From: Candidatus Omnitrophota bacterium | Lineage (GTDB): Bacteria; Ratteibacteria; UBA8468; B48-G9; JAFGKM01 | Length of the DNA: 55,698 nucleotides | Assembly: GCA_023818645.1 (NCBI GenBank) | Contig: JAMWCJ010000003.1 | Span: 1 to 55,698, forward strand | Direction of reading: 5' to 3' | Shown: positions 9,318 through 55,698 of the stretch, in pieces | Position numbering within the stretch: the first letter of the stretch is position 1 | Layout: each line of letters starts with the position of its first letter | The notes under the pieces: model-generated | Database searches by the model: none | Told to the model about the DNA's origin: nothing | Seen by the model: the letters and a program-made list of their open reading frames with translations, nothing else | Made by a program: the position numbers and the translations under genes

Positions 9318-9373
9318 TTTACTCCTTTTTGTCTTTTTAATTTAGATAAATTTTTTTTAAAAAAGTTTCAAAT

Positions 9374-9739
9374 CTATTTTTCTACGAATTTACATTTGAT
9401 AGGTCCAAATCTTATTTCGTCATTGTCTTCGAGTTTATATGGTTTCTTTACTTCAAGACGAGCAACATTTACATATGTACCATACTGACTTCCTAAGCCA
9501 GTTGTTCCAATATCTTCAATATACCAACCATCCTGTCTTTTTGTTATTCTTGCATGAATTCTTGAGACTTTCATTAGATTATCAAGATATAACTTTTTTG
9601 TAGTATCAGGTAAATTTTTGAAATAATTATAGTTTGGGATAGAAATATCGTTTGTATTCTGTCTCCCTATATAAATCTTTTCTTTCGTTAACTCATATTC
9701 TTTATCCATAAAAGGATAGTCAAAAACAAGTTTAGCCAT
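9374..9739 (-). CDS. Small FHA-domain protein
   Basis: IGRQNTNDISIP...VSRIHARI...YIEDIG...GTYVN matches the FHA pattern. Confidence 0.7.
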   Translation of the reverse strand: MAKLVFDYPFMDKEYELTKEKIYIGRQNTNDISIPNYNYFKNLPDTTKKLYLDNLMKVSRIHARITKRQDGWYIEDIGTTGLGSQYGTYVNVARLEVKKPYKLEDNDEIRFGPIKCKFVEK

Positions 9740-18006: not shown

Positions 18007-19317
18007 CTAAATAATTTTTTTACCTGTCCAGCAGTAAAGACATAATTTTTCTTCCGGAATCCCAATACCTTTTACAAAATCCTCTATTGTATTATATTTT
18101 AGAGTATCTGCTCCTATTTTTTTTGCAATTTCTTCAATTTTATATTTTTTTGCTGCCAGTTCTTTGTAACTTCTTGTAGAAATATCATATAGACAGGGAG
18201 CAATTAAAGGAGGGCACCCTACTCTAACATGTACTTTTTTTGCTCCAAATTCTTTTAACTCAAGCACTTTATTTCTTATTTGAGTTCCACGAACTATAGA
18301 ATCGTCACAAAGAATAATATTTTTTCCCTTTACATTTGCTTCAATAACAGAAAGTTTTAATTCCGCTTCTTGCTCTCTTTCTTCCTGTGTAAGGGGTAAA
18401 TAACTTCTGCTTGCAAATCTATCAATCAAAAAAACTTCATCATAGGGAATTTTAGAACCTTTATGATAACCAAGCGCATAACCAATGCCAGAAAAAGGTA
18501 TTGCTGAAACAATGTCGGCTTCTACATTGTCCTTTTTTGCGAGAAAAAAACCAAGATTATTTCTTGCTTTTGCTACAGAGACGCCTTCAATTATTGAATC
18601 CATAGAAGCGATATAACCCCATTCAAAAGCACAGAAAGCAATTTTTGGACTTTTTATAATTTTTTGGGTCTGAATACCCTTTTCATTTATTAGAATAATC
18701 TCGCCAGGTTTTACATCCCTTATAATTTTAGCATCAAGAAAACTAAAAGGTCTTGATTCAGATGAAATTATATAATCATTACTACTTTTTCCAATAATTA
18801 GTGGTTTAAATCCATAAGGGTCTCTTGCAGCATAAATTCCATCTTTACAAAGAATCAAAACTGTATAGGATCCTTTTACTCTTTTTGAAAGTTTTTCAAG
18901 TCCTTCTACAAAATTATTGTTTTGAACAATTATTTTTGCAATAAGTTCTATTTGTGTATGACTGAAAAATGACTGCCCTTTATTTTTTTCTTCATTAAAT
19001 AATTGTTCAAAATTAATTACATTACCTGTAAAAGCGATAGAAAAAGTTCCTAATTTTGATTCAAGAGAAATTGGTTGCCTTTCTTTTAAACTTACATGTC
19101 CAATTCCATAGTTACCAATAAGTTTTTCTAATTCGAATTTTGTAAAAGAATGTCTTACAAAACCTTCATGGGTTATCAGATTGATTCCTTTATAATAAGT
19201 AGAAATTCCACAGTATTTTTGACCACGATGCTGTAATTTAAAAATTCCATAAAAAATCTTCTCGCTGCAATTTTTATTTGAGTAAATTCCAAAAACTCCA
19301 CAATTTTCCATATTCAT
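18007..19317 (-). CDS. purF: Amidophosphoribosyltransferase
   Basis: Short propeptide followed by CGVFGIY (Ntn Cys), a PRTase motif ILCDDSIVRGT and C-terminal Cys residues. Confidence 0.9.
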   Translation of the reverse strand: MNMENCGVFGIYSNKNCSEKIFYGIFKLQHRGQKYCGISTYYKGINLITHEGFVRHSFTKFELEKLIGNYGIGHVSLKERQPISLESKLGTFSIAFTGNVINFEQLFNEEKNKGQSFFSHTQIELIAKIIVQNNNFVEGLEKLSKRVKGSYTVLILCKDGIYAARDPYGFKPLIIGKSSNDYIISSESRPFSFLDAKIIRDVKPGEIILINEKGIQTQKIIKSPKIAFCAFEWGYIASMDSIIEGVSVAKARNNLGFFLAKKDNVEADIVSAIPFSGIGYALGYHKGSKIPYDEVFLIDRFASRSYLPLTQEEREQEAELKLSVIEANVKGKNIILCDDSIVRGTQIRNKVLELKEFGAKKVHVRVGCPPLIAPCLYDISTRSYKELAAKKYKIEEIAKKIGADTLKYNTIEDFVKGIGIPEEKLCLYCWTGKKII

Positions 19318-41925: not shown

Positions 41926-42438
41926 TTAAATATTGGTTTTTGATTTATTTAACTGTAAACAAGAAATTATCATTGAAGTATTTAGAAGATATGGTTTATT
42001 TTTGTCTCTTTTCATTTCAAATTGATAGATATAAATACCTTTTGTTTTTTCAAGTTTTTCAAGTATAGAAAGAAGTTGTTCAATTGTTATAAGATTTATT
42101 TGTATCTCAATTTTTTCTAATAGATATTCATTTATCTTCTCTTTTGGTAAAATATTAATATCACTAATATTTGTTTTTATTGATGAAACTTCAATTAAAT
42201 CATTTAAATAAGAAAATAAAGAAAATCTATCCGTAGCAACTTCAACAGAATAATTCTTTTCTTTAATTTCACCTTTTTTATATTTTTCACACAATTCAAT
42301 AAATTCGTTATATTCTTTTTCTTTTTTTAAAATTAAATTTTCTAAATTTTTGACTTTTCTCTTATTCGGAATATAAATATATTGGTATTCAAAAATAATA
42401 ATAAAGGCAATCAAAATTAAAATAATTCTTCTGTCCAT
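41926..42438 (-). CDS. GspM/PilO-like bitopic inner-membrane assembly protein
   Basis: 170 aa with one N-terminal TM segment (RIILILIAFIIIF) followed by a coiled coil. It is the last gene of the gsp cluster, with start/stop overlap to the L-like gene. Confidence 0.45.
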   Translation of the reverse strand: MDRRIILILIAFIIIFEYQYIYIPNKRKVKNLENLILKKEKEYNEFIELCEKYKKGEIKEKNYSVEVATDRFSLFSYLNDLIEVSSIKTNISDINILPKEKINEYLLEKIEIQINLITIEQLLSILEKLEKTKGIYIYQFEMKRDKNKPYLLNTSMIISCLQLNKSKTNI

Positions 42439-43655
42439 TAAATTACCATTTTTAATAAGATATTAAATTTTACTTTATTCTCTTTTGTAAAAGATATATC
42501 GTTAATTATAAAATCTGTAAAAATCTTTGATTTTCTTACTTTCCCCTCAATAATATCAAAATCCTTTAAACTTTCAACTGTACATATTAAATTTAAATTT
42601 TTATTATTTATTAAAACTTCTTCAACCTCTACATTAATATTTTCTGGAAAAAGATTTGTTATTTCTTCAAGAATTTTTATAATAGGAATTTTGTAAATAG
42701 GGGCTGGAGAATAATTTTTATCTTCCAACATCTTTTCTTTAATTTGTATCAGAGGGTTTATGATTTTTTTTGTTTCAGGAAAGATTGACTTATAAAGATT
42801 TTCCATTCTTTTATTAATTTCCTCTACTTTCTTTTCTTTTTCTATTTTTTCAAAATGTGGATTTATGAAAAATAAAGTACATATGACTAAAAGGAAAAAA
42901 TAAAATATATATTCAAGATTTATTTTTTTCCGTGGCAACAAAATTTCCTGAAAGGAGATGCTTTTAATTTTTTTTGTTTCTTCTAATATGTTGAAAAAAG
43001 TTGCCTCTGATAAAAAATGTATTCCCTCTATTTTTATCTCTTGATAAATTTTTCTATCTCCAATAAAGTAAACAGGGTGTTTTTTAGTTGAAAATAAAGA
43101 AGGAAGGATTTCTGAAATATGTTCTTTTATGTTATCTGAAGAATAAGAATAAACACCAGAAATTACAGAATTTTCAATAAGATTTATTAAAAAATAATCA
43201 TTTTCAGCAAAAAGTTCAATAAAATTGTTTTCTTTAATTTTATTTTTAAAAAATTGGTCAAGCAAGAGAGAATCAATTAAAAATATATATTTTGCCTTAT
43301 TTATTTTAAAAATTTCTTTCAGATAGTTTATTTTATCTTTTTCAATAGCAAAAATTCCAACGATGGTCTTATTCTTCTCAGGATATTGAAAATTTAAATA
43401 AAAATAAAAATTATCAATAGGTAATGGTAACTTACCCTCAATTTCTTGACTTAAGATTAAACTTATTTTCTTTTTGTCAACAAAATCAAATTCTACTTTT
43501 CTAAAAAAAACATTTAATTTAGAAAAAATTAAAACAAAATAATTCCCTCTATTTTCTTTTATAAAATTTTCTAAATTTTCAAAAACGATTTCTCTTTTTT
43601 CACTATTTTTGTAACAATAAACCGTTTCACCCTTTATATATAAATAAATTTTCAT
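42438..43655 (-). CDS. GspL-like (PilM/PilN-type architecture) assembly-platform protein
   Basis: 405 aa with a cytoplasmic about 240-aa domain, a single TM (YIFYFFLLVICTLFFINP) and a periplasmic tail. It sits between gspK and the gspM-like gene. Confidence 0.5.
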   Translation of the reverse strand: MKIYLYIKGETVYCYKNSEKREIVFENLENFIKENRGNYFVLIFSKLNVFFRKVEFDFVDKKKISLILSQEIEGKLPLPIDNFYFYLNFQYPEKNKTIVGIFAIEKDKINYLKEIFKINKAKYIFLIDSLLLDQFFKNKIKENNFIELFAENDYFLINLIENSVISGVYSYSSDNIKEHISEILPSLFSTKKHPVYFIGDRKIYQEIKIEGIHFLSEATFFNILEETKKIKSISFQEILLPRKKINLEYIFYFFLLVICTLFFINPHFEKIEKEKKVEEINKRMENLYKSIFPETKKIINPLIQIKEKMLEDKNYSPAPIYKIPIIKILEEITNLFPENINVEVEEVLINNKNLNLICTVESLKDFDIIEGKVRKSKIFTDFIINDISFTKENKVKFNILLKMVI

Positions 43656-45086: not shown

Positions 45087-45462
45087 TTTTTAAAGATGTT
45101 TTTAAAAATGGAATAAAAGTGGAATAATATTCATCTTTCCATTCTATTATTAATTTATAAGGAATCATTTCAATATCTTGTTCTGTATCTTTTATTGTTA
45201 TATCTGAGATTTTAATTTCCCATATATACTCACTATCTGGTTCATCAAAATTTCCTCTCCCCTCTTTTATTTCTTCGCCTTTTAATTTAATTTCTTCAAT
45301 TTTCTTTTCTGCAAGAAGAATTATTTTTACTTTATCATTTATAATTTTTATCTCTTTTAGACACATTAAAAAATTTGTTAAACATACAGTTGCAACAATT
45401 CCAAAAATTCCAATAGCAACCATTATTTCAAGAAAAGTAAATCCATTTTTATATATTTTCAA
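45079..45462 (-). CDS. gspI: Minor pseudopilin, GspI-like
   Basis: Prepilin motif KNG-FTFLEIMVAIGIFGI. Size (127 aa) and order fit GspI. Confidence 0.6.
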   Translation of the reverse strand: MKIYKNGFTFLEIMVAIGIFGIVATVCLTNFLMCLKEIKIINDKVKIILLAEKKIEEIKLKGEEIKEGRGNFDEPDSEYIWEIKISDITIKDTEQDIEMIPYKLIIEWKDEYYSTFIPFLKTSLKNE

Positions 45463-45912
45463 AATTTATTTCTCCTTTTAAAATTTCTATATCTGAAAAA
45501 GGATTGCTGAAAAGAGTATATTTTAAATTCTTTTCAGAGTCGTAAATGTATAATAGCATAAAATCCTTTTTTCCGTTCGGTTTAATTTTAAAAAAAATTG
45601 TTCCGCTATTCTTTTCTTCAATTTCATTTTTACCTTTATAAAAATCAAAGTTTGAAATAATTGGTTCAACTTGATTTTCTTCGTCATTTCCAAACCAAAA
45701 GGAATTTTCGTCAAGATTAAAAAAGAAATATATCGTTTGTTTATTAGAAATTGCAATTTTTTCTGCTTGTTTAATTTTATCCATTAATTTATTTAATTCT
45801 TCATCAGAAATCTCTAAAAAAAAAGATTTGAAAGAGGGTAAAATTAGAGAAAAAAAAACGAAATTATTAATAAAACCACCATCATTTCAAAAAAAGTGAA
45901 TCCCTTACTCAA
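45449..45912 (-). pseudogene. gspH: Minor pseudopilin GspH-like, split by a -1 frame change inside a T9 run (A9 on the + strand, 45850-45858)
   Basis: Minus-strand frame A (45912-45844) reads TTG-start M-SKG-FTFFEMMVVLLIISFFFL-stop, a prepilin leader plus helix. Frame C is open 45886-45449 and continues FFSLILPSFKSFFLEISDEELNKL-MDKIKQ.... One extra T, or a -1 slip in the run, fuses them into an about 154-aa pseudopilin. Confidence 0.75.
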
Positions 45913-46345
45913 TCTTTGAACTTGATATATCTGCATCTGCCCCTTCTCCTCCTTCTTTTCCATCCCTTCCATATGAAATAATTTCATAATCTTCTCCATT
46001 TCTTCCAGGACTTAAGTATACATAATCATTGTTCCACGGATCTTTTGGAATAGAAGGTTTATCAAGATATCCTCCTTCTCTCCACTTTTGAGGGATTCTA
46101 CCTGATGTGGGTTTTTCTATCAATGCTTTTAGTCCTTGTTCTGTAGAAGGATAGAAACCATTATCAAGATAAAATAATTTAAGTCCACTTTCTAAACTTT
46201 TTATCTGTACTTTTGCAGCAGTAATTTTTGCATCTTCAACTCTTTTTAAAAAAGAAGGGAAAACTAACATTGTAAGCAAACCAAGGATTATAATAACTAC
46301 CATAAGTTCAATAAATGTGAAGCCCTTTTTCATGCTTATCTTCAA
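45905..46345 (-). CDS. gspG: Type II secretion major pseudopilin GspG
   Basis: MKKG-FTFIELMVVIIILGLL, then GFYPSTEQGLKAL and DPWNNDYVYLSPGRNGEDYEIISYGRDGKEGG, the classic GspG core. Confidence 0.9.
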   Translation of the reverse strand: MKISMKKGFTFIELMVVIIILGLLTMLVFPSFLKRVEDAKITAAKVQIKSLESGLKLFYLDNGFYPSTEQGLKALIEKPTSGRIPQKWREGGYLDKPSIPKDPWNNDYVYLSPGRNGEDYEIISYGRDGKEGGEGADADISSSKIE

Positions 46346-47549: not shown

Positions 47550-49067
47550 TTAAACATCCTGTGTCACTCTTAATACCTCTGATATTGTTGTAAGTCCTTT
47601 TTTTACTTTGTCTATTCCATCCATTCTTAATGTTTTCATTCCTCTTTTTATACCTTCTTTTTTAATCTCGCTTGAAGATGCTCTTTTTAAAATAAGTTCT
47701 TTTATTCCTTCATCAATAACAAGTAATTCAAAAATACCTGTTCTACCATAATATCCCTCATTTAAACAATATTTACAACCTTTTCCCACCATAAATTTAC
47801 TATTTATTAAATCTTTTTCATCAACTTCGGGAATTAATTCAGAAGGTGGTTTTTCTATAACAGAACATTTTGGACAATTTAATCTTACCAACCTTTGAGC
47901 CATAACACCTATTAAAGAAGAGGCGAGTAAATATGGTTCTATTCCCATATCTGTCAATCTCACTATTGCACTTGAAGCATCATTTGTATGTAAAGTGCTG
48001 AAAACAAGATGTCCTGTTAAAGATGCTTGTATTGCCATTTCCGCTGTTTCCCTATCTCTTATTTCTCCAACCATTATAACATTAGGGTCGTGTCTTAATA
48101 TAGACCTTAAACCATTTGCAAAAGTTAATCCTACTTTAGGATTTACTTGTATTTGATTTATCCCTTCAAGATTATATTCAACTGGATCTTCAAGAGTTAT
48201 TATATTTATTCCAGGATTATTGATTTTAGATAAAGCAGCATAGAGTGTTGTTGTTTTTCCACTTCCTGTTGGGCCTGTTAATAAAATAATTCCATGGTCG
48301 TAATGGATTAGTTGGTTAAATTTAATATAATTATCTTCAGAAAAACCAAGTTGTTCAAGACTTAACAAAAAAGTTGCTCTATCAAGCAATCTCAATACAA
48401 CTGATTCACCAAAAAAAGTAGGTATTATAGAAATTCTTATATCAATTTTTTTACTATCAACTTTTATTGATGTTCTTCCATCCTGTGGAATCCTTTTTTC
48501 TGCAATATCAAGATTAGACATTATTTTAATTCTTGTTATGATTGGTGGATGATATTTTTTGGGGAGAACAAAAATGTCGTGAAGAATTCCGTCTATTCTA
48601 TATCTAACTTTTAAAGAAGTTTCCATAACTTGAAGGTGAATATCACTTGCTCTCATTGAGATTGCTCTATAAATTATTTGATTTACTATTCTGATAACAG
48701 GTGCTTTATTGGCAAGGTCAAGAAGGTTAGATGTTTCAGTATCAATATTTTCGTCTAAATGTAATGATTCTTCTGTACGCAGATCATCAATCACTTTTTT
48801 TGAAGAACTTGGATGATAATAAAATTTTTCAATAGTTTCATTTATTTTCTCTTCGCTTGAAATGGCTATTTTTATGTCCTTTTTAAGAATTGTTTTTATC
48901 TCTCCTATATCAAGATTTAAAGGATTATTTGTGATAATAAGGATTTCTCCATTTTCACCATTAACAGGAATAAAACAATTATTTTTTAAAAAATTATAAG
49001 GGAAAATATTCAAAATTTCAGGGTCTATCCTGTCTTCAAAATTTTCTATCCATCTCAATTTATCCAT
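47550..49067 (-). CDS. gspE: Type II secretion ATPase GspE
   Basis: N-terminal GspE_N-like domain, Walker A GPTGSGKTT, Asp box, Walker B VIMVGEIRD, His box, and a tetracysteine CPKC...CKYC. Confidence 0.95.
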   Translation of the reverse strand: MDKLRWIENFEDRIDPEILNIFPYNFLKNNCFIPVNGENGEILIITNNPLNLDIGEIKTILKKDIKIAISSEEKINETIEKFYYHPSSSKKVIDDLRTEESLHLDENIDTETSNLLDLANKAPVIRIVNQIIYRAISMRASDIHLQVMETSLKVRYRIDGILHDIFVLPKKYHPPIITRIKIMSNLDIAEKRIPQDGRTSIKVDSKKIDIRISIIPTFFGESVVLRLLDRATFLLSLEQLGFSEDNYIKFNQLIHYDHGIILLTGPTGSGKTTTLYAALSKINNPGINIITLEDPVEYNLEGINQIQVNPKVGLTFANGLRSILRHDPNVIMVGEIRDRETAEMAIQASLTGHLVFSTLHTNDASSAIVRLTDMGIEPYLLASSLIGVMAQRLVRLNCPKCSVIEKPPSELIPEVDEKDLINSKFMVGKGCKYCLNEGYYGRTGIFELLVIDEGIKELILKRASSSEIKKEGIKRGMKTLRMDGIDKVKKGLTTISEVLRVTQDV

Positions 49068-50652
49068 CTTTATTTATCCCTTCTATTAATTTTTCTTTCT
49101 CTTGTTTTATTTTTTCTGCCTGTTCAAATGTTGAAATTATATGAGGTGTAATAAATATCATTAAGTTTGTTTTTATTGATTTAGTTGTCTCTTTTCTGAA
49201 TAACCTGCCGAGAAGTGGGATGTCTCCAAAGAATGGAACTTTTTGAAGCGATTTTTCTGAATCGTTTCTTAATAATCCACCGAGAACAACAGTTTTTCCA
49301 TTTGGAATTATTAAAGTTGTTTCTGCCTGTCTTTTTGCTGTTGTTGGTGCTTCAGGTATTCCTCCTTCAACAAGTTTTGTAACCTCTTGAGAAATTTTTA
49401 ATCTTACATATTTATCCTGACTTATCTGCGGAGTTATTTTTAATATAATCCCAACATCTTTATAATCATAACTTTTAACAACATCGCTACCCTGTCCACT
49501 TGAATAAGTGTAAAACCTTGTTTCTTTTAAATAAGGTATATTTTCACTTATATTTATTTTTGCTTCCTGATTATCTGCGGTTACAATTTGTGGTGTTGAA
49601 AGTATATTGAACTGACTATCTTTTGCATACATATTTATTAAAGCGCCTACACTTAAAGGGAAAGTAAAATCACCTTTATAAAAAGCAAGAGAAAGTCCTG
49701 ATGGTGGAACTCCTGATGCAATATAAGAAGCAATATCTCCAAAGTTAGTTCCTGTAACACCTGTATAATTTTCATTATTAAATTTCCAAGATGTTGCCCA
49801 TTCTATTCCAAGTTGTTTTGTTTTATCAATAGTTACTTCTGCAATTAATGCTTCAATTAAAACTTGGTTTGTTAAAACATCCAGTTCTTTTATAATTTTT
49901 TCAATTGTATCAAAATCATTAGGGTCTGCATAAACAATTAGTGAATTTGTTGCTTTTACACTAACAACCTGTGGTTGTATAGGTGCTGTTCTTGCTATAG
50001 GTCTAACAGCAGAAATCTTTTTTTGTAAAATTTGACCTAAAACTTTAGCAATTTCTTCAGCATCAGCATTTTGTAATTTAAATATTCTTATTTCCTCTTG
50101 TCCTGGTGGACTTGGTTTATCTATTTTTTCAATAATACTAATTATTTTTTTAATATTTTCACCGACATCTGCAATAATTAAGGTATTTGTTCTTGCATCA
50201 ATTGTAATCTGTCCTCCTTTAGAAATATATGGTGTTATTATTTGAGAGATTGTATCTGAGGGATAATATTTTAGAGGAATTACTTGGATTATAAAATTCT
50301 CTTCTTTATTTTCTGGTATGTCAGAAATATTTATATCTTTTGCTCTTATTTTACCTTCAGAAATAGGAATAATCAGTGATAGATTTTCTTTTTTTATAAC
50401 TGTAAAACCATAAAAGTTTAATACAGATTTAAAAACTCTGTCAATATTTTCAACAGGTACAGGAGTTGTTGAATAAATAGTTATAGTTCCTCTTACATTT
50501 GGGTCTAATACATAGTTTTCTTTCGTTAATTCACCTATAAATTTAATAAATGTCTTTATATCAACATTATTGAAGTTCAAATAAAAATTGCTTTCGGATA
50601 AAATAACTATTGAAGAAAAAAAATAAATAATAAAATAAAGAACCTTTTTCAT
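49060..50652 (-). CDS. gspD: Secretin, GspD type (compact, 530 aa)
   Basis: Signal peptide, an N0-like domain (FNNVDIKTFIKFIGELTKENYVLDPNVRGTITIY), N1/N2-like repeats, a secretin core (QVLIEALIAEVT...) and the C-terminal VPFFGDIPLLGRLFRK....NLMIFITPHII. Confidence 0.9.
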   Translation of the reverse strand: MKKVLYFIIYFFSSIVILSESNFYLNFNNVDIKTFIKFIGELTKENYVLDPNVRGTITIYSTTPVPVENIDRVFKSVLNFYGFTVIKKENLSLIIPISEGKIRAKDINISDIPENKEENFIIQVIPLKYYPSDTISQIITPYISKGGQITIDARTNTLIIADVGENIKKIISIIEKIDKPSPPGQEEIRIFKLQNADAEEIAKVLGQILQKKISAVRPIARTAPIQPQVVSVKATNSLIVYADPNDFDTIEKIIKELDVLTNQVLIEALIAEVTIDKTKQLGIEWATSWKFNNENYTGVTGTNFGDIASYIASGVPPSGLSLAFYKGDFTFPLSVGALINMYAKDSQFNILSTPQIVTADNQEAKINISENIPYLKETRFYTYSSGQGSDVVKSYDYKDVGIILKITPQISQDKYVRLKISQEVTKLVEGGIPEAPTTAKRQAETTLIIPNGKTVVLGGLLRNDSEKSLQKVPFFGDIPLLGRLFRKETTKSIKTNLMIFITPHIISTFEQAEKIKQEKEKLIEGINKDG

Positions 50653-50681
50653 TTTTATAATTCTGGTGTCAATCTTAAATT

Positions 50682-51749
50682 TTACCTAATAACTCCACCT
50701 TGAGTTCCTATTGTTCTTGCTCTTTCGCGTGTATAGGTATCTATTGCATTTTCTATTGCTTGTTTTACCTCATCGTCTGTTTCTTTTTTTAATCTTTCAA
50801 GTAAAATATTCAAAATCTGGGGATTGTATTCCATTGCAGAAATAATCTTAACTGCATTTTTTCTAATCTCTGGATTATCATCATTAAGATATTTAATTAT
50901 TGAAGGGTCAACGCCAAATATTCCAGTTATACTTGTTCCCCTTGTTCCACCTTGTCCTTCTCTACTTAGACCAACACTTTGTAGATATAACTCAATTGAA
51001 TCAGTCAATACTTTTCTCACTCCTTCATCTTTTTCATATTTTAATCTTACAAGTAATGTTCTTAAAGCAATAAGTTCCTGTAAACTCCCTGCTTCATATT
51101 CATCTCTTTGTGAACCAGTTCTATTTCTTGTATCGGTTCCTGCAAAACTTCTTGTTGAAAAGATTTTTGTAGCATACTGTCTAACTACAGGGTCAGGATC
51201 ATCCATAAATCTTAAAATAGTTACATCTGTTTCAAATAGAATATCAAGTCCCATAGATGCCATATCTTGAACTTCAGGGTCAGGGTCATTTAAAAGCACA
51301 AAAAGGTCTGGGATAAAAATTGCTCCTCCAACTCCTTCTCCACCTCTATCTCTACTATCTCTACCAATATCCATACCAAATAACCCTCTTACTCCACTCC
51401 TATTATCTGAAGTTCCTCTTGTTCCCTCTCCGCTTACCATTGCTCCTGTTAATGATTGAATTGCTTGAATTCTTACTTTTGGGTCAGGGTGTCTTAAATA
51501 ACTTCCAATTATTGCTGCTAAGAAATTTGCAAGTTGTGAACTTCTATAATCTTCTTCTCTACCAGATTGACCCCTAATTCCTCTTCCCAATCCTCCCTGT
51601 CCAAATGTACCTGTTCTTGAACCAATACTTCCCTGCCTTGATATATTAGAAATTCTTGTTGCTTGTTGTGTTGAAGTTGTTTGAGAAAAAAGCACTGTAG
51701 TAGCCAATAACACTATTATAAACACCATACTTTTTATTATTTTCTTCAT
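50682..51749 (-). CDS. Secreted/periplasmic HEAT-repeat protein with Gly/Arg/Ser/Thr-rich linkers
   Basis: Signal peptide MKKIIKSMVFIIVLLATTVLFS-QTT. Five HEAT-like units (HPDPKVRIQAIQSL, NDPDPEVQDMASMGL, DDPDPVVRQYATKIF, NDDNPEIRKNAVKII, ETDDEVKQAIENAI) are separated by GTRGTS/GRG-type low-complexity segments. Confidence 0.7.
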   Translation of the reverse strand: MKKIIKSMVFIIVLLATTVLFSQTTSTQQATRISNISRQGSIGSRTGTFGQGGLGRGIRGQSGREEDYRSSQLANFLAAIIGSYLRHPDPKVRIQAIQSLTGAMVSGEGTRGTSDNRSGVRGLFGMDIGRDSRDRGGEGVGGAIFIPDLFVLLNDPDPEVQDMASMGLDILFETDVTILRFMDDPDPVVRQYATKIFSTRSFAGTDTRNRTGSQRDEYEAGSLQELIALRTLLVRLKYEKDEGVRKVLTDSIELYLQSVGLSREGQGGTRGTSITGIFGVDPSIIKYLNDDNPEIRKNAVKIISAMEYNPQILNILLERLKKETDDEVKQAIENAIDTYTRERARTIGTQGGVIR

Positions 51750-51808
51750 TTTCCCCTCCCTTTTTGTTTATATATTACCTTAACTTTTTATAAATGTCAA
51801 TATTTTCT

Positions 51809-53671
51809 TTAAAACTTTTCAAGTAATCCACCTTCTATCTTTTCTTCTGACTTTTTAACATCTGGTTTTGTAATTTCAACTGATTCTTCATAAGATGAGA
51901 TAATATGAGGAGTTATAAAAATTAATAGTTCACTTTTATTTCTATCAAAACTTGGTTTTTTAAATAAATATCCAAGGATAGGAATTCTTCTTAAAAAAGG
52001 AATGCCAGATTCTTTTGCTTCTTCTCTACTTCTTATCATTCCACCTATAACAAGTGTTTCTTTGTCATATAGAACAACGCTTTGAGTTGTCATTCTTTCA
52101 GATAAAATTGGGATTTCAATTGAATATCTTTGGTCAGCAGTCATTGCTTCAAGTTTTCTCCTTTCAATTAGATTTGAATCATATATGTTTAGATTAAGCA
52201 TAATTGTTCTGTTTCTTTGTATCAAAGGTGTAACTTCAAATTCAGTTCCAATTATTTCTTCTTGTAGATTTATTGCACTTGCAGTAGTTACTGTTGGTGC
52301 TCCTGTTGCTGGTGTTGTTATTGTTTGTTGTGTTTCAGGTATTATATAAGGTTCATTTTGTGTTACTGCTATATATGCAGTTGTTCCGTTTATACAGGTA
52401 ATTTTTGGTGCTTGAATTATTTTTGCCTTACCCCTTGTTGCAAGTGCCTGAATTAATGTATTGAAATCTCTATTGGTTACTCCAAAAGAAAATCCAGTTG
52501 GTAATGTTTGTGTTAATCCAGGAGTATATGTGATATTATCTCCAAATCTTGGGCCAGTTAAAGTTCCGTCAATAGCGTTAATCATTCTTGAACTTATCAT
52601 CCAGTCAATAGAAAATTGATTACCTTCAGAAGTTGCTACTTCTACAATTTTACATTCAAGAAGAACTTGAGAAACAGGTGTATCAAGTGTAGAAATAACA
52701 CCTTCTATATTTCTTAAAATATTTTCACTTTGTGCTTCAGCTATTATTGAATTTGTTGTTGGTTCAGGATAAGCAGTTATTCCTTTAAAAACTTCTCTTA
52801 ACGCTTTTACAATTGTACTGGCATCTGTGTAATAAAGTTTAAATACTCTTCTTGCTTTCTGGATCTCTTTAATTTTTTCCTGATATTCTTCTTTTGTCAT
52901 TATCTTTATTATTCCATTTTCTTCTATATATTTAAGTCCATTCTGTTCACATATAGTATCAAGAACTATTCTAATTGGTATATCTTTGAAACTGAGTGTA
53001 ACCTTTCCAGAAACATTAGGACTTAAAATATAACTTACTCCAGTAATTTGATACAATTCATCCAATGCTTCTTTGAGGTTCATATCTTTTAATTCAATCG
53101 TTACTTTTTTATTCCCTATTTCACCTAATTTTGGTCTTTCTTCTTCAATTTTTCTCAAAACTATTTCTTCCATCTGTCTTCTTGCTTTACTTGCAAGTCG
53201 TATTGTTTCAGTAAACATATTACTTTCATATGATTTTTGAGCAAGATTGAAAGTAGATGTTGGTTCCAATTTTTCTATATCTGAAAGGTTATATTTTTCA
53301 TTAACTTCATTAAAATATTTACTTGTTTCTAATAATGCCTGTTGTGCCTGAAATGCCAATTTTTCGAACTCCTCTTCCCTATTAACTATAATCTCACCTT
53401 TTAAATCTTCACCTATCTTAAATTCCTCTTTTGTATTAAGTTTTCCAAGTCGTGCCTGTGAATTTTTAAGATATCTATCAACATCTGATTTTCTGTAATT
53501 TGGGTTTATTGATTTTATTTTAGTGAAAGTTGCAATTGCATTAGGATAGTCCTTTTTGAGATAATAAGAAACTCCAAGATTATATAAATCCCTCAAATTT
53601 TCTTGAGTATATAAGTTAAAATTCAAAAAAATTAAAATCAATAGTAAAATTAACCCACTTTTTCTTATCAT
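51809..53671 (-). CDS. Second secretin, PilQ-like, with an N-terminal TPR-like/helical extension
   Basis: Signal peptide, a TPR-like unit (LYNLGVSYYLKKDYPNAIATFTKIKSINPNY), an N0/STN-like domain (LKDMNLKEALDELYQITGVSYILSPNVSGKVTLSFKDIP), a secretin core (QVLLECKIVEVAT...) and GIPFLRRIPILGYLFKK....ELLIFITPHII. Confidence 0.85.
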   Translation of the reverse strand: MIRKSGLILLLILIFLNFNLYTQENLRDLYNLGVSYYLKKDYPNAIATFTKIKSINPNYRKSDVDRYLKNSQARLGKLNTKEEFKIGEDLKGEIIVNREEEFEKLAFQAQQALLETSKYFNEVNEKYNLSDIEKLEPTSTFNLAQKSYESNMFTETIRLASKARRQMEEIVLRKIEEERPKLGEIGNKKVTIELKDMNLKEALDELYQITGVSYILSPNVSGKVTLSFKDIPIRIVLDTICEQNGLKYIEENGIIKIMTKEEYQEKIKEIQKARRVFKLYYTDASTIVKALREVFKGITAYPEPTTNSIIAEAQSENILRNIEGVISTLDTPVSQVLLECKIVEVATSEGNQFSIDWMISSRMINAIDGTLTGPRFGDNITYTPGLTQTLPTGFSFGVTNRDFNTLIQALATRGKAKIIQAPKITCINGTTAYIAVTQNEPYIIPETQQTITTPATGAPTVTTASAINLQEEIIGTEFEVTPLIQRNRTIMLNLNIYDSNLIERRKLEAMTADQRYSIEIPILSERMTTQSVVLYDKETLVIGGMIRSREEAKESGIPFLRRIPILGYLFKKPSFDRNKSELLIFITPHIISSYEESVEITKPDVKKSEEKIEGGLLEKF

Positions 53672-53719: not shown

Positions 53720-55698
53720 TTATTTTACATCTATTGAATATATCAACCCTTCCTTTGATAAAATTAATTTTTTATCCTCTCTTTTCATTAATCTGTACCC
53801 TTCTACTTCATCTCCTATTGTTACTTTATATGTTTTTTTCTCTCCTTCAATAAAGAAATATTCAACACCTTCTAATATCATTCTGCCTCTATAAATAAGT
53901 TTACATTCTTTTTGAGGAAGAATAAATGGAGTGGTTTTTACTTCTGGGACTTTTTCAATTTCTGACAGTTTTGTAGATATAGAAACTTGTTCTGGTTTAG
54001 TAATAATTGGCTTTTCAACAGGAGATACTTTTGGTACTTCTGGCTTTTCAACAGGAGAGATTTTTGGTACTTCTGGTTTTTCAGGTTCAGTTATTTTTTC
54101 TTCTGCCTTTAAAATACTTACAAATTTTTGTGTTTTCATAATTGAGATAACATCGGGTTTTTTAGCATATATTATATTTGTAGGAGTAGGTTTTTTCATA
54201 ACTTCCATCGTTAACCTTCCAGTAGAAAATGGGTCTCTTTTTCCCTCTATGTCAATTTTTTCTTTTGTATAGTAAACAAGTTTTTCTTCTTCTATAACCT
54301 CTTTTTTCTTTTCCGGTGCAGGTCTTACTTCTGCCATTTCACCTACTATAAGTTTTAATCTTTCTTCAGGAGAAACTAATTTTTTGAGATATAATAATAG
54401 TTCTACAATCCACGCAAATATAAGAACTATAAAAACAAATTTAAATATATTTCTTCTTAAAAAGGACCTGAGATTGAAAGGTTCTTTATAAACAGCAACC
54501 TTAACTTTTTCTTTTGGAATAATTTTTGCTTTTTCAGGAACAATTTTTACACGTTTTTTCTTTAGAATTTCTTTTTTCTTAAGATTTATAAGATTTGTAA
54601 TGTTCTTTTTTGTATCATTTAATTGAAATTCTGGAATTTTATCTGTTTCAACAACTATTTTAGATATGTTGTCTATATATGTTTTAATTTTTTGTTGTTC
54701 TTCTTTTCTTCTTATTATTTCTTCTTTTTCAGGTCTTGTTATTTTTATCTCTTTTACAGGTATCTTTTCTTTCTTTTTTAGAAGGATTTCTTTTCTTTCT
54801 TTTTCAAGTTTTTTTGCTATTTCAATAAGTTCTAGTTTTCTTTGTCTTTCAATTGTTTTTTTGTAAAGAATAAGATTGGTGTAAAGGAGGTTTTTTTCCT
54901 TTTCTATTTGATTTAGAAGTGCTTTATATCTTATAAAATTGAATAAATTCTGTTTGTTTTTTATTCGTAAGTTCTTTTGCTCTAATTTCTTTTGAAGTTT
55001 CCTTTTCTCTCTTTCTTTCTGCCTTTCTTTCTCTAACTCTAACTTCTTCTTTAACTCCTCTTGCTTTTTCTCCTCTAACTGCTTCCTTAACTCTTCCTTT
55101 TCCTTCCTCTGTCTTTCTCTTTCCTCCTGTATTTTCTTTATTTGCTCCTGTCTTTCTCTCTCTTTCTCCTCCTTCTCTTTTTCTTTTAATTCTAATACCT
55201 TTTGTTTCTCCTTGCTTCTCCTTTCCTTTAATTCCTGTTTTTCTAATAGTAACTTTTCCCTTAATCTCTTATTCTCTTCTACTTTCTTCTTTAATAACTC
55301 TAATATCTCCTCTCTTTTCTTTAATTTTTCTTGCTTTTCTTTTCTAACTTGCTCTAATCTTTTCTCTTTTTCCTGTTCTCTTTCCTTTAATAGTTCCTGT
55401 TTCCTTTTCTCTCTTTCTTTCTGCCTTTCTTTCTCTAACTCTAACTTCTTCTTTAACTCCTCTTGCTTTTTCTCCTCTAACTGCTTCCTTAACTCTTCCT
55501 TTTCCTTCCTCTGTCTTTCTCTTTCCTCCTGTATTTTCTTTATTTGCTCCTGTCTTTCTCTCTCTTTCTCTTCCTTCTGCTTTTCTTTTAATTCTAAATA
55601 TTTTTTTCTTTTTTCTTTTCTTCTTTTACTATTTAATATAAATGCTTTGTCTGCTTCTTCTGGTTTTTTTTCTTTGTTTATTTCCTTATCAGTCCAAT
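53720..55698 (-). CDS. PilP/GspC-like secretin-docking protein fused to a very long Glu/Lys/Arg coiled-coil N-terminal region (5' end outside the window)
   Basis: I checked every in-frame triplet from 54338 to 55696 on the minus strand and found no stop and no ATG/GTG/TTG. The 205-aa track ORF (53720..54337) is therefore only the tail of an ORF of at least 658 aa. Layout: over 430 aa of polyampholyte coiled coil, one TM (IFKFVFIVLIFAWIVELLLYL, about 54386-54448), an RDPF motif, Pro-rich PEVPK(I/V)SPVEK repeats, and a C-terminal beta domain LIYRGRMILEGVEYFFIEGEKKTYKVTIGDEVEGYRL that fits the PilP/GspC HR pattern. Confidence 0.7.
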   Translation of the reverse strand, partial: WTDKEINKEKKPEEADKAFILNSKRRKEKRKKYLELKEKQKEEKERERQEQIKKIQEERERQRKEKEELRKQLEEKKQEELKKKLELEKERQKEREKRKQELLKEREQEKEKRLEQVRKEKQEKLKKREEILELLKKKVEENKRLREKLLLEKQELKERRSKEKQKVLELKEKEKEEKERERQEQIKKIQEERERQRKEKEELRKQLEEKKQEELKKKLELEKERQKEREKRKLQKKLEQKNLRIKNKQNLFNFIRYKALLNQIEKEKNLLYTNLILYKKTIERQRKLELIEIAKKLEKERKEILLKKKEKIPVKEIKITRPEKEEIIRRKEEQQKIKTYIDNISKIVVETDKIPEFQLNDTKKNITNLINLKKKEILKKKRVKIVPEKAKIIPKEKVKVAVYKEPFNLRSFLRRNIFKFVFIVLIFAWIVELLLYLKKLVSPEERLKLIVGEMAEVRPAPEKKKEVIEEEKLVYYTKEKIDIEGKRDPFSTGRLTMEVMKKPTPTNIIYAKKPDVISIMKTQKFVSILKAEEKITEPEKPEVPKISPVEKPEVPKVSPVEKPIITKPEQVSISTKLSEIEKVPEVKTTPFILPQKECKLIYRGRMILEGVEYFFIEGEKKTYKVTIGDEVEGYRLMKREDKKLILSKEGLIYSIDVK
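54011..54076. repeat. 33-bp tandem repeat (2 copies plus a partial third) encoding the Pro-rich spacer
   Basis: Copy 1 is cttttcaacaggagatacttttggtacttctgg (54011-54043) and copy 2 is cttttcaacaggagagatttttggtacttctgg (54044-54076). They encode PEVPKVSPVEK and PEVPKISPVEK. Confidence 0.8.
54997..55597. repeat. In-frame intragenic direct duplication, two copies 402 bp apart
   Basis: 54997-55168 is identical to 55399-55570 (172 bp). Similarity extends to about 199 bp (to 55195/55597) with 3 mismatches. The 402-bp offset equals 134 codons. Confidence 0.85.

What the first reader, a model, noticed from the sequence alone, without database searches (positions are those of the whole stretch)
53720..55698. 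The PilP/GspC-like protein is much longer than the ORF track shows, with a polyampholyte coiled coil of over 430 aa, one TM, and RDPF plus a Pro-rich spacer and HR-like domain
The ORF track reports only 205 aa. However, the minus-strand frame has no stop and no start codon between 54338 and the window edge, so the protein has at least 658 aa. The visible N-terminal part is almost pure E/K/R/Q/L heptad-like sequence (e.g. KEKEELRKQLEEKKQEELKKKLELEKERQKEREKRK). It is followed by a single hydrophobic helix, then a periplasmic part that resembles PilP. That part has KRDPFS, PEVPK(I/V)SPVEK repeats and a C-terminal beta-domain pattern Y.G...L.G..YFFIE....YKV..GD.V.GY.L. PilP proteins are normally small lipoproteins, and GspC has only a short cytoplasmic tail. 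A huge charged cytoplasmic extension on the secretin-docking subunit would be unusual. It could be a ruler, tether or cytoskeletal anchor.
Basis: partly seen in the sequence, partly recalled or inferred. Interest (0 to 1): 0.75.

Follow-up and report, generated by a model that had tools for sequence, protein, structure and literature searches.

The report
Secretin-docking protein with giant cytoplasmic helix
An uncultured Omnitrophota/Ratteibacteria-type bacterium encodes the inner-membrane protein that links a pilus/secretion machine to its outer-membrane pore, but with a roughly 450-residue, highly charged helical tail inside the cell that textbook versions lack and whose role is unknown.

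Summary
The minus-strand frame ending at 53720 stays open to the window edge (658 codons; shuffles give about 42 stops). A database fragment identical over 41 residues supplies the missing 37-residue N-terminus, giving 695 aa as assembled, with no signal peptide. There is one TM helix (visible residues 417-437). Two AlphaFold models give a confident C-terminal beta-domain whose best PDB matches are all GspC-HR, PilP, PulC, LspC or GspB. In relatives the gene lies between a PilO-like (Amuc_1100-type) gene and a secretin, at the head of a gspD-M cluster. The PilP/GspC reading therefore holds by fold and position, though no curated sequence threshold is met. The "coiled coil" part does not hold. 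The cytoplasmic region is three long predicted helices (about 340 residues). They show no heptad periodicity, are 58-69% charged and net basic (+52), and resemble ER/K single alpha-helices. The architecture is family-wide but rare: 40 representatives among 1.84 billion proteins and 20 of 185,579 species genomes, all Omnitrophota-type MAGs. Complete genes run 543-858 aa with lineage-specific internal duplications, which break half of the assemblies. I call it a new variant of a known kind, with the tail's function unresolved. In passing, the gspH-like pseudopilin gene carries an invariant T9 tract needing a -1 frameshift in 14/14 loci.

The parts
53720..55698 (-). Visible part of the gene: 658 codons plus the stop at 53720-53722. 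The 5' end (37 codons) lies beyond the window edge. Full length as assembled is 695 aa.
55589..55669 (-). Conserved N-terminal motif 2 (KKPEEADKAFILNSKRRKEKRKKYLEL; visible residues 10-36). Motif 1 (REEKKKxLLxFIxxKK, here RENKKRKLIEFINRRKK) lies just outside the window.
   Evidence: alignment A6
55241..55663 (-). Predicted cytoplasmic helix 1 (residues 12-152, about 21 nm if straight), ER/K-like, pLDDT 80-89
54767..55207 (-). Predicted cytoplasmic helix 2 (residues 164-310, about 22 nm). It contains the second repeat copy and a third LLxFI-like motif (KQNLFNFIRYKALL, 54914-54955).
55399..55626 (-). Internal direct repeat, copy A. About 199 nt are nearly identical to copy B, at a spacing of 402 nt (134 aa).
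54997..55224 (-). Internal direct repeat, copy B
54563..54724 (-). Predicted cytoplasmic helix 3 (residues 325-378), amphipathic and conserved (QKIKTYIxxISK...)
54485..54562 (-). K/P-rich disordered cytoplasmic linker (residues 379-404)
54449..54490 (-). Juxtamembrane motif YKEPFxLxxFLRRN (residues 403-416). E405, P406, F412, R414 and N416 are invariant in 12 sequences.
54386..54448 (-). Single transmembrane helix (residues 417-437; Kyte-Doolittle 19-mer maximum 2.66)
54107..54268 (-). Most conserved periplasmic module (residues 477-530, EKIDIEGKRDPFSTGRLTMEVMKKPxPTNII...SILK). A beta-hairpin is predicted at low confidence. By analogy with PilP, this is the candidate PilN/O-binding segment.
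53912..54106 (-). Pro-rich disordered periplasmic spacer (residues 531-595), including the 2 x 33-nt tandem repeat PEVPK(I/V)SPVEK at 54008-54073. Its length varies among homologues.
53723..53911 (-). C-terminal HR (GspC/PilP-type) beta-sandwich domain (residues 596-658; pLDDT 83-93)
51809..53671 (-). Downstream neighbour, 48 nt away: secretin 1 (signal peptide, TPR, STN/N0, N1, secretin domain). It is one of the two candidate docking partners of the HR domain.
49060..50652 (-). Secretin 2 (GspD equivalog, 453.7 bits against a cutoff of 351), the alternative docking partner. It is followed by gspE-F-G-(H)-I-J-K-L-M-like genes.

Best explanation
This is the inner-membrane, secretin-coupling subunit (HR-domain class: GspC/PilP/GspB) of a PVC-type pilus/type II secretion machine in an Omnitrophota/Ratteibacteria-like bacterium. 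Shown or strongly supported: it is one polypeptide of about 695 aa, N-in/C-out with a single TM. Its periplasmic part has a conserved RDPF module, a Pro-rich spacer and a C-terminal HR beta-sandwich. Its cytoplasmic part (about 453 aa) has two short conserved basic-amphipathic motifs at the N-terminus, then three long, highly charged, net-basic helices without heptad periodicity, then a conserved juxtamembrane YKEPF...FLRRN motif. Inferred: the HR domain binds the N0 domain of one or both neighbouring secretins, as all characterised HR domains do. The RDPF module contacts the PilN/PilO-like periplasmic domains, as the PilP N-terminal region does. The charged helices act as a length-variable, semi-rigid ER/K-type spacer. 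This spacer would hold the conserved N-terminal motifs tens of nanometres (up to about 50 nm if extended) from the membrane, tethering a still unknown cytoplasmic partner to the envelope-spanning machine. Spacer length evolves by recurrent tandem duplication of 47-159-aa units.
For: Gene integrity. True N-terminus without a signal peptide. TM and charge asymmetry. An independent full-length model gives the same list (3oss_C: E 0.006). Weak transitive sequence links: family members hit Pfam CdsD_C, T2SSC, TcpS, T2SSB and PilP below threshold, and the distant member P0048 hits NCBIfam GspC models at 1e-6 and 5.6e-6. Synteny, seen in four lineages with 43-75% identity: PilM-N fusion (Amuc_1101 family, 1e-61), Amuc_1100/PilO-like gene, this gene, secretin, HEAT protein, then GspD-E-F-G.... 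It is the only HR domain in the window. Helices: residues 12-152, 164-310 and 325-378 at pLDDT about 80-89. No heptad periodicity, and ER/K-like charge pattern. Family-wide architecture: 40 representatives, many of 554-771 aa. 10 complete genes in GTDB genomes are 543-858 aa, with the TM at residues 320-625. The cytoplasmic region is always net positive, +23 to +92. Constraint: the charged region aligns to the L001 ortholog without gaps over 146 aa (66% identical, 90% similar), with pN 0.15 against pS 0.79. Length dynamics: lineage-specific exact internal repeats in 11 of 16 full-length members. P0017 (699 aa) and L018 (858 aa) are 697/699 identical apart from one 159-aa indel in the repeat region. 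Within-genome repeat copies are more alike than orthologous copies.
Against: No curated sequence model (Pfam PilP or T2SSC; NCBIfam GspC or PilP) reaches threshold, and the target itself gives zero hits. PDB sequence-profile searches find nothing. Foldseek E-values are modest (0.006-0.02), and the models rest on alignments of only 11-12 sequences. Docking to N0 was not tested, and which of the two secretins is the partner is unknown. Short local heptad stretches or oligomer-only packing are not excluded. No partner for the N-terminal motifs was identified; the motif profile finds only fragments of the same family. Repeat copy number, and hence length, is assembly-dependent: the contig ends at this gene, and half of the homologous loci are truncated or gapped.
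Confidence: 0.55

Rival explanations
1. The cytoplasmic helices are a genuine intermolecular coiled coil. The 12-15 copies expected around the secretin would bundle their tails into a cage or ring under the inner-membrane platform, analogous to the cytoplasmic rings of T3SS and T4P machines.
For: Long uninterrupted helices are predicted. Leu plus Ile make up about 19% of the region. Short segments reach a/d occupancy of 0.62-0.88, around residues 113-140 and 253-280. HR-domain proteins are present in multiple copies per machine (PMC3169554).
Against: There is no 3.5- or 7-residue hydrophobic periodicity above shuffles in any of the three helices, in contrast to the tropomyosin control. Mean a/d occupancy is 0.37, and no 28-residue window within residues 1-240 reaches 0.75. 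The region is 69% charged with i/i+3 and i/i+4 opposite-charge patterning typical of single alpha-helices.
Confidence: 0.2
2. The tail is a polyanion-binding module. Its strong net positive charge would bind DNA/RNA (the nucleoid), polyphosphate or the anionic inner leaflet. This would localise the machine, or lay the helices flat along the membrane via the basic-amphipathic LLxFI motifs.
For: Net charge is +52 here and +23 to +92 in every family member, despite sequence turnover. The recurring motifs (K/R-flanked LLxFI) resemble membrane-targeting amphipathic helices (the resemblance is from general knowledge).
Against: No nucleic-acid-binding domain or fold was detected. Acidic residues are nearly as abundant as basic ones in the repeats. 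The hydrophobic moment of the motifs is only moderately above background. This reading is also compatible with the spacer model rather than exclusive of it.
Confidence: 0.2
3. The tail is a neutral low-complexity expansion: purine-rich slippage or duplication junk, tolerated because it faces the cytoplasm and has no specific function.
For: Recent lineage-specific duplications are seen and length varies from 128 to 625 aa. Composition is extreme. Some family members have short tails: P0040 has 128 aa, and the distant P0045 and P0048 have fewer than 10 aa.
Against: The charged region aligns without gaps and is 90% similar to a genus-level ortholog, with pN/pS of about 0.19, similar to the rest of the protein. 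Conserved motifs sit at both ends. All ten complete genes in species-representative genomes keep 320-625 residues before the TM helix, and the tail of every family member scored carries a net positive charge.
Confidence: 0.1
4. Artefact: the long frame is a chance open frame or an assembly chimera, and the real gene is the 205-aa ORF.
For: The contig or window ends inside the gene, and a near-identical 199-nt repeat lies within it.
Against: Shuffles never give fewer than 22 stops. Ten independently assembled complete orthologs have the same architecture. The internal Met is not conserved. A TM helix and conserved motifs lie upstream of that Met.
Confidence: 0.02

Closest known systems
GspC (T2SS inner-membrane secretin-coupling protein)
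   Same: It is bitopic N-in/C-out with a single TM, a Pro-rich periplasmic linker and an HR beta-domain (best structural match 3oss_C). The gene lies at the head of a gspD-E-F-G...-M-like cluster, and no other HR protein is in the window.
   Different: GspC has a short cytoplasmic N-terminus and a C-terminal PDZ or coiled-coil domain after the HR (PMC3169554). Here the cytoplasmic part is about 453 aa and the protein ends with the HR domain. The Pfam T2SSC and NCBIfam GspC thresholds are not met.
PilP (T4aP alignment-complex lipoprotein)
   Same: It has an R(D/N)PF-type motif followed by a linker and a C-terminal HR beta-sandwich (2y4y, 2ivw and 2lc4 among the top hits). The gene lies between a PilO-like gene and a PilQ-like secretin in relatives.
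   Different: PilP is a small lipoprotein with a lipobox signal peptide and no cytoplasmic part (general knowledge; PMC3169554 calls it a lipoprotein). Here there is no signal peptide or lipobox, but a TM anchor and a huge cytoplasmic region.
GspB/OutB (T2SS scaffolding protein)
   Same: It has a single TM, a variable periplasmic linker and an HR domain near the C-terminus that binds secretin N0 (PMC9239104); 4wfw is among the hits. Some GspBs (Alteromonas) carry an extra cytoplasmic domain, DUF3391, which sets a precedent for cytoplasmic add-ons.
   Different: There is no gspA partner and no peptidoglycan-binding C-terminal extension. The cytoplasmic add-on here is a charged helical repeat region, not a globular DUF.
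SctD (PrgH/YscD/CdsD) of type III secretion
   Same: It works alike in outline: a bitopic inner-membrane ring protein whose periplasmic part contacts the secretin and whose N-terminal cytoplasmic domain links to cytoplasmic components (general knowledge). The best sub-threshold Pfam match of the family's HR domains is CdsD_C (7/21 members).
   Different: SctD has FHA-type cytoplasmic domains and ring-building motifs. There is no sequence or fold match to those here.
ER/K single alpha-helix (SAH) spacers (myosin X/VI, caldesmon-type) and the TolA domain II stalk
   Same: It shows very high E/K/R content, i/i+4 opposite-charge patterning, a charge period of about 7.5 residues, no hydrophobic heptads, and long uninterrupted predicted helices.
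   Different: Known SAHs are mostly eukaryotic and 30-200 residues long. Here there are two helices of about 140 residues plus one of 54, net basic, attached to a bacterial secretion-machine subunit. The monomeric state is not shown.
Amuc_1099 of the Akkermansia Amuc_1098-1102 pilus-like cluster
   Same: It holds the same position, between the Amuc_1100-type gene and the secretin. The flanking genes match the NCBIfam Amuc_1101, Amuc_1100 and Amuc_1098 families below their cutoffs (PMC5332112).
   Different: Amuc_1099 is reported to have an N-terminal signal sequence (PMC5332112). No sequence similarity was detected, and I could not retrieve its sequence to compare directly.
FimV/HubP-type T4P-associated hub proteins
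   Same: These are single-pass proteins associated with secretin assembly that carry a large, highly charged, repeat-rich cytoplasmic region (general knowledge).
   Different: Their topology is the opposite (periplasmic LysM domain at the N-terminus, acidic cytoplasmic C-terminus), and they have no HR domain.

Membership tests
GspC (T2SS protein C) | HR (homology region) beta-domain in the periplasm | tested here: met
   Met by fold only. 3oss_C: TMt 0.74, prob 1.0, E 0.019 and 0.006 from two models. The distant family member P0048 hits NCBIfam GspC models at 1e-6.
GspC (T2SS protein C) | Match to the curated sequence models (Pfam PF11356 T2SSC; TIGR01713) | tested here: not met
   The target gives 0 hits at E<=1. 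One of 21 family HR domains hits T2SSC at 0.0015.
GspC (T2SS protein C) | Short N-terminal cytoplasmic segment followed by one TM | tested here: not met
   One TM is present, but it is preceded by 416 visible residues (453 in total).
GspC (T2SS protein C) | C-terminal PDZ or coiled-coil domain after the HR | tested here: not met
   The protein ends 2-3 residues after the last HR strand.
GspC (T2SS protein C) | Gene adjacent to gspD within a gsp operon | tested here: met
   The order is: target, secretin 1, HEAT protein, GspD (453.7 bits against cutoff 351), GspE, F, G, (H), I, J, K, L-like, M-like.
PilP (T4aP) | Lipoprotein signal peptide with lipobox Cys | tested here: not met
   The true N-terminus MSRENKKRKLIEF... 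is hydrophilic. The same holds in 10 complete orthologs.
PilP (T4aP) | C-terminal beta-sandwich of the PilP/HR fold | tested here: met
   2y4y_C (E 0.026, TMt 0.61), 2y4x, 2ivw, 2lc4 and 4av2_M are among the top hits.
PilP (T4aP) | Match to Pfam PF04351 / TIGR03021 | tested here: not met
   There are no hits for the target. The best family member reaches E 0.023-0.075, below the cutoffs.
PilP (T4aP) | Gene order pilM-N-O-P-Q | tested here: met
   Met in relatives L001, L002-4 and L005: PilM_2 (PilM-N fusion), Amuc_1100/PilO-like gene, target, secretin. The upstream genes lie beyond the window edge.
PilP (T4aP) | N-terminal periplasmic segment binds the PilN/PilO heterodimer | not testable with these tools
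   The conserved RDPF module (residues 477-530) is a candidate by analogy only.
GspB/OutB | TM + linker + HR domain binding secretin N0, usually next to gspA, with a PG-binding C-terminal extension | tested here: inconclusive
   The TM, linker and HR are present (4wfw hit). No gspA-like gene is seen in the window or in relatives, and there is no C-terminal extension.
Canonical coiled coil | Heptad (3.5-residue) periodicity of hydrophobic residues | tested here: not met
   FFT power at period 3.5 is 0.06-0.33, against a shuffle mean of 0.15-0.22. Tropomyosin scores 8.0 against 0.24. a/d occupancy is 0.37.
ER/K charged single alpha-helix (SAH) | High E/K/R content with i/i+3 and i/i+4 opposite-charge pattern and few hydrophobic residues | tested here: met
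   Residues 1-240 are 69% charged with 17% core hydrophobics. The SAH-type score is 0.42, with peaks of 0.66, against Myo10 SAH at 0.60 and tropomyosin at 0.13. The charge period is about 7.5 residues.
ER/K charged single alpha-helix (SAH) | Monomeric, stable helix in solution | not testable with these tools
   This needs CD, SEC-MALS or AUC. AlphaFold predicts helices but cannot give the oligomeric state.

The most novel reading that the evidence does not exclude
The tail is a length-tunable molecular ruler. It would be an ER/K-type single alpha-helix array on the secretin-coupling subunit that physically connects the envelope-spanning pilus/T2SS machine to a cytoplasmic structure or partner, via the conserved N-terminal (R/K)EKLLxFI motifs, in ultra-small Omnitrophota cells. 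Its reach would be reset repeatedly in evolution by duplication or loss of 47-159-aa helical units. That would make it the first SAH spacer built into a bacterial secretion or pilus machine.
Probability: 0.2. Interest if true: 0.7.

Novelty: new variant of a known kind. Interest (0 to 1): 0.5.

Why it matters
HR-domain proteins (GspC, PilP, GspB) are seen as purely periplasmic couplers between the inner-membrane platform and the secretin. Here a whole clade adds hundreds of residues of charged helix on the cytoplasmic side. This suggests that in these candidate-phylum bacteria, proposed to be ultra-small and host-dependent (PMC10066038), the coupler also communicates with, or is positioned by, something in the cytoplasm. 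It offers a natural series of length variants for testing spacer or ruler ideas. There is also a practical consequence. The internal repeats break short-read assemblies: 10 of 20 species-representative loci are truncated or gapped. As a result the gene is almost always annotated as a partial hypothetical protein, with spurious antisense ORFs called over it. The family, and the completeness of the T2SS/T4P cluster, is therefore systematically under-recognised in MAG surveys.

Tried and rejected
1. Pfam and NCBIfam scans of the target gave no hits.
2. PDB sequence searches with the periplasmic profile (A2) and the HR-only profile (A5) gave nothing meaningful.
3. I searched for the N-terminal motif module in other protein architectures, using the A6 profile against 5.8 billion proteins. 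Only three fragments of the same family came back, so there is no functional clue.
4. Foldseek of the full-length model gave no match for the cytoplasmic helices, only the HR hits.
5. A hydrophobic-moment scan, meant to test whether the LLxFI motifs stand out as membrane-targeting helices, was not discriminating.
6. I considered co-folding the HR domain with a secretin N0 domain (a chimera with a linker). I abandoned it because the structure tool returns neither coordinates nor PAE, so an interface could not be judged. 
7. A look-up of the contig carrying P0051, to see this genome's upstream genes, found nothing on record.
8. Literature searches found no description of this protein or of a cytoplasmic extension of this kind. 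Terms covered Amuc_1099, Omnitrophota plus pili/secretin, PilP plus cytoplasmic domain/coiled coil, and CdsD/PilP/GspC.
9. The idea that the 205-aa ORF is the real gene was rejected.
Full report
**1. The observation**

The ORF table lists only 53720..54337 (-), 205 aa. That tool does not list ORFs that run off the source. Translating the minus strand from 55696 to 53720 gives 658 sense codons and then a stop. The other two frames of that strand contain 38 and 75 stops. Among 2000 shuffles of 54338-55696, the mean was 41.6 stops and none had fewer than 22.

The Met that begins the 205-aa ORF sits in a conserved stretch (IVGEMAE) where homologues have Thr, Ile or Glu. It is therefore not a start site.

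The described features are all present:
- one hydrophobic helix, at visible residues 417-437 (54448-54386)
- KRDPFS
- two PEVPK(I/V)SPVEK units, encoded by a 33-nt tandem repeat at 54008-54073
- the C-terminal Y.G...EGVEYFFIEG...YKVTIGD.VEGY motif.

**2. The true N-terminus and topology**

Only 13 homologues were found among 5.8 billion clustered proteins, and nearly all are annotated "partial". In the 110-kb contig of a relative (L001, 75% identity) the gene starts at an ATG 7 nt after the upstream gene. The window aligns to it from residue 39.

A profile of the N-terminal module then retrieved P0051 (78 aa). Its last 41 residues are identical to the window's first 41 codons. Its first 37 residues are MSRENKKRKLIEFINRRKKERLTHKEKILKKIKEKND. 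The protein is thus 695 aa as assembled.

It has no signal peptide and no second hydrophobic segment. The same holds for 10 complete orthologs of 543-858 aa in species-representative genomes. The N-terminal region carries net charge +52, and the HR domain must be periplasmic. The topology is therefore N-in/C-out.

**3. What the periplasmic part is**

Pfam, NCBIfam and PDB sequence searches are silent for the target.

AlphaFold2 with an 11-sequence alignment gives a confident beta-domain for the last 60 residues (pLDDT above 90). Foldseek against the PDB returns, as its top 14 hits, only HR-fold proteins:
- GspC-HR from the GspC-GspD complex (3oss_C: E 0.019, prob 1.0, TM 0.74 over 65/65 columns)
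- P. aeruginosa and N. meningitidis PilP
- PulC-HR
- LspC
- GspB.

A second, independent full-length model gives the same list (3oss_C: E 0.006).

Sequence-level links exist but stay below threshold. Family HR domains hit Pfam CdsD_C (7/21), T2SSC, TcpS, T2SSB and PilP. The most distant member of the family profile (P0048) hits NCBIfam GspC models at 1e-6 and 5.6e-6.

Between the TM and the HR domain lie two regions. The first is the most conserved segment of the protein (EKIDIEGKRDPFSTGRLTMEVMKKPxPTNII...; omega 0.17 against L001). The second is a disordered, length-variable Pro-rich spacer.

**4. Genomic context**

In the window the gene is followed, on the same strand, by:
- secretin 1 (signal peptide, TPR, STN/N0, N1, secretin domain)
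- a signal-peptide-bearing HEAT-repeat protein
- a GspD-equivalog secretin
- GspE, GspF, GspG, minor pseudopilins, GspK
- weakly GspL- and GspM-like proteins
- polA.

In relatives spanning 43-75% identity, the genes directly upstream are a PilM-PilN fusion (NCBIfam Amuc_1101 family, 1e-61) and an Amuc_1100-type (PilO-like) protein. The gene therefore sits in the pilP slot of a pilMNOPQ-like module. At the same time it sits in the gspC slot of a gspC-M-like operon. It is the only HR-domain ORF in the window. The cluster is the Omnitrophota counterpart of the Akkermansia Amuc_1098-1102 cluster, in which Amuc_1099 holds this position (PMC5332112).

**5. What the cytoplasmic part is**

AlphaFold predicts three long helices, at residues 12-152, 164-310 and 325-378 (pLDDT about 80-89). 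These are followed by a K/P-rich disordered linker and a short juxtamembrane helix leading into the TM. There is no compact fold (pTM 0.22).

The "heptad-like coiled coil" reading fails two tests:
- Best-register a/d hydrophobic occupancy is 0.37 for residues 1-240. The controls give 0.85 (GCN4) and 0.57 (tropomyosin).
- Fourier power of hydrophobic residues at 3.5 residues is indistinguishable from shuffles in every helix. Tropomyosin gives 8.0 against 0.24.

Residues 1-240 are instead 69% charged, with an i/i+3 and i/i+4 opposite-charge score of 0.42 and peaks of 0.66. By comparison, Myo10 SAH scores 0.60 and tropomyosin 0.13. The charge period is about 7.5 residues. This matches ER/K single-alpha-helix-like sequence.

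Conserved islands flank the variable helices:
- motif 1, REEKKKxLLxFIxxKK, at the N-terminus
- motif 2, KPxE...SKRRKERREKLLE, about 50 residues later (visible at 55589-55669)
- a third LLxFI-like motif after the repeats
- an amphipathic helix (residues 335-348)
- an invariant juxtamembrane motif, YKEPFxLxxFLR(R/K)N.

**6. Family, constraint and dynamics**

A profile of the periplasmic part finds only 40 representatives among 1.84 billion proteins. Many are full-length at 554-771 aa. It also finds 20 loci in 185,579 species genomes. All are MAGs labelled Omnitrophota, Ratteibacteria or "bacterium", plus a few obviously mis-binned labels. The cytoplasmic region ranges from 128 to 625 aa and is always net positive, +23 to +92.

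The tail is not drifting junk. Against L001 the charged region aligns without a gap over 146 residues (66% identical, 90% similar). Its pN is 0.15 against a saturated pS of 0.79.

Length nevertheless turns over. The window has a 402-nt unit present 1.5 times, with about 199 nt nearly identical between the copies. L001 has its own pair of copies that match each other better than they match the window's. 11 of 16 full-length members carry lineage-specific exact repeats with periods of 47-152 aa. P0017 (699 aa) and L018 (858 aa) are 697/699 identical except for one 159-aa indel in the repeats.

These repeats explain why 8 of 20 loci end inside the gene and 2 more carry N-gaps there. They also make the 695-aa length assembly-dependent.

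**7. Mechanism**

Shown or strongly supported: this is a single-pass N-in/C-out protein with a periplasmic HR domain, sitting next to secretins and platform genes.

Inferred from characterised HR proteins (PMC3169554, PMC9239104): the HR domain docks onto secretin N0, and the RDPF module contacts the PilN/O-like proteins.

Inferred from anatomy: the cytoplasmic helices form a semi-rigid, length-variable spacer of 21 + 22 + 8 nm if extended. This spacer would present the conserved N-terminal motifs to an unknown partner.

Rival readings:
- an oligomeric coiled-coil cage
- a polyanion- or membrane-binding basic domain
- neutral expansion
- artefact (refuted).

**8. Comparison and novelty**

The protein works like GspC, PilP or GspB, but it fails defining features of each. 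Unlike GspC it lacks a short cytoplasmic tail and a PDZ or coiled-coil C-terminal domain. Unlike PilP it has no lipobox. Unlike GspB it has no gspA neighbour and no C-terminal extension. No curated sequence threshold is met.

The nearest precedent for a cytoplasmic add-on is the DUF3391 domain of Alteromonas GspB (PMC9239104). The nearest functional analogue is SctD of type III systems. I found no description in the searchable literature.

Verdict: a real, family-wide, new variant of a known kind. Its PilP/GspC interpretation is supported by fold and synteny, its "coiled coil" label is corrected to ER/K-like helices, and its functional idea remains untested.

**9. Side finding**

The gspH-like minor pseudopilin gene in the same cluster is split at an invariant T9 tract (45850-45858, minus strand). 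A -1 shift restores a canonical pilin N-terminal helix. The same tract, at the same offset, is present in 14 of 14 loci examined, with GC from 23% to 45% and variable flanking codons. This suggests programmed frameshifting or transcriptional slippage.

Noticed in passing
window 45449-45936 (-); T9 tract at 45850-45858; 0-frame stop at 45844-45846. Also L001 ~18830-19275, L002 ~18279-19006, L006 ~9200-9707, L028-L037: The gspH-like minor pseudopilin gene is split. The prepilin leader plus N-terminal helix (MQIYQVQRLSKG|FTFFEMMVVLLIISFFFL*) stops right after a T9 run, and the remaining ~130 aa (SLILPSFKSFF...) lie in the -1 frame. The T9 run, at exactly the same offset (45 nt after the Gly codon), and the -1 requirement recur in 14/14 loci (GC 23-45%). 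Flanking codons vary but the T9 is invariant. This points to a selected recoding site, either a programmed -1 frameshift or U9 transcriptional slippage, rather than an error or a pseudogene. Gene callers leave a gap or call only the 3' part. One literature search found no report.
   Followed up: partly
window 49060-53671 (-): Two secretin genes sit in one cluster: 620 aa (TPR + STN/N0 + secretin) and 530 aa (GspD equivalog). They are separated by a 355-aa HEAT-repeat protein (50682-51749) that has a signal peptide and Gly/Arg-rich low-complexity stretches. The arrangement is conserved in L001, L002 and L006. There is only one HR-domain protein, one ATPase and one GspF.
   Followed up: partly
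window 41926-43655 (-) together with L001 6406-8882: The cluster seems to carry two sets of platform proteins. A PilM-PilN fusion plus a PilO-like (Amuc_1100-type) gene lie upstream of the target in relatives. A weakly GspL-like (405 aa) gene and a GspM-like (170 aa) gene lie at the distal end. The Pfam/NCBIfam support for the latter pair is only E 0.01-0.1.
   Followed up: no
P0032, P0034, P0036, P0038, P0040, P0042, P0043: A sub-branch of the family carries two HR domains in tandem at the C-terminus. This is intriguing given the two secretins per cluster. Their genomic context was not examined.
   Followed up: no
window edge 55574-55698, against P0051: The window's last 41 codons are identical to the C-terminal 41 residues of P0051, a 78-aa product on record from a 3.8-kb contig. 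If P0051 is cut off by the end of that contig, the two contigs overlap by about 123-127 nt, roughly one assembler k-mer. P0051 ends (...LELKEKQK) about six residues into repeat copy A (LELKEK...). This would be consistent with an assembly-graph break at the repeat and an uncertain repeat copy number.
   Followed up: partly
L001 9055-9465 (-); window 53931-54272 (+) and 54666-54866 (+): Long ORFs appear on the antisense strand of the charged or Pro-rich coding regions. One of them is a called gene in the public record (136 aa in L001). These are almost certainly spurious products of the strand's purine/pyrimidine skew.
   Followed up: no
L009, L026; P0002, P0004: Contigs carrying this bacterial outer-membrane machine are deposited in MAGs labelled Pacearchaeota, Aenigmarchaeota and Vermiphilus. 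This probably reflects mis-binning of low-GC Omnitrophota/Ratteibacteria contigs.
   Followed up: no
window 54008-54073 (-): A 33-nt perfect-register tandem duplication (94% identical) encodes PEVPKISPVEK/PEVPKVSPVEK in the periplasmic spacer. Homologues have 0-2 such units, so the periplasmic linker length also varies.
   Followed up: partly
window 1-41923: The rest of the window is ordinary chromosomal housekeeping: GH38 alpha-mannosidase, ClpB, Lgt, GyrA, GyrB, adenylosuccinate lyase, PolX and PolA. There are no tRNAs. GC is 21-31%, with a consistent negative GC skew on the + strand from about 4 kb onward.
   Followed up: partly
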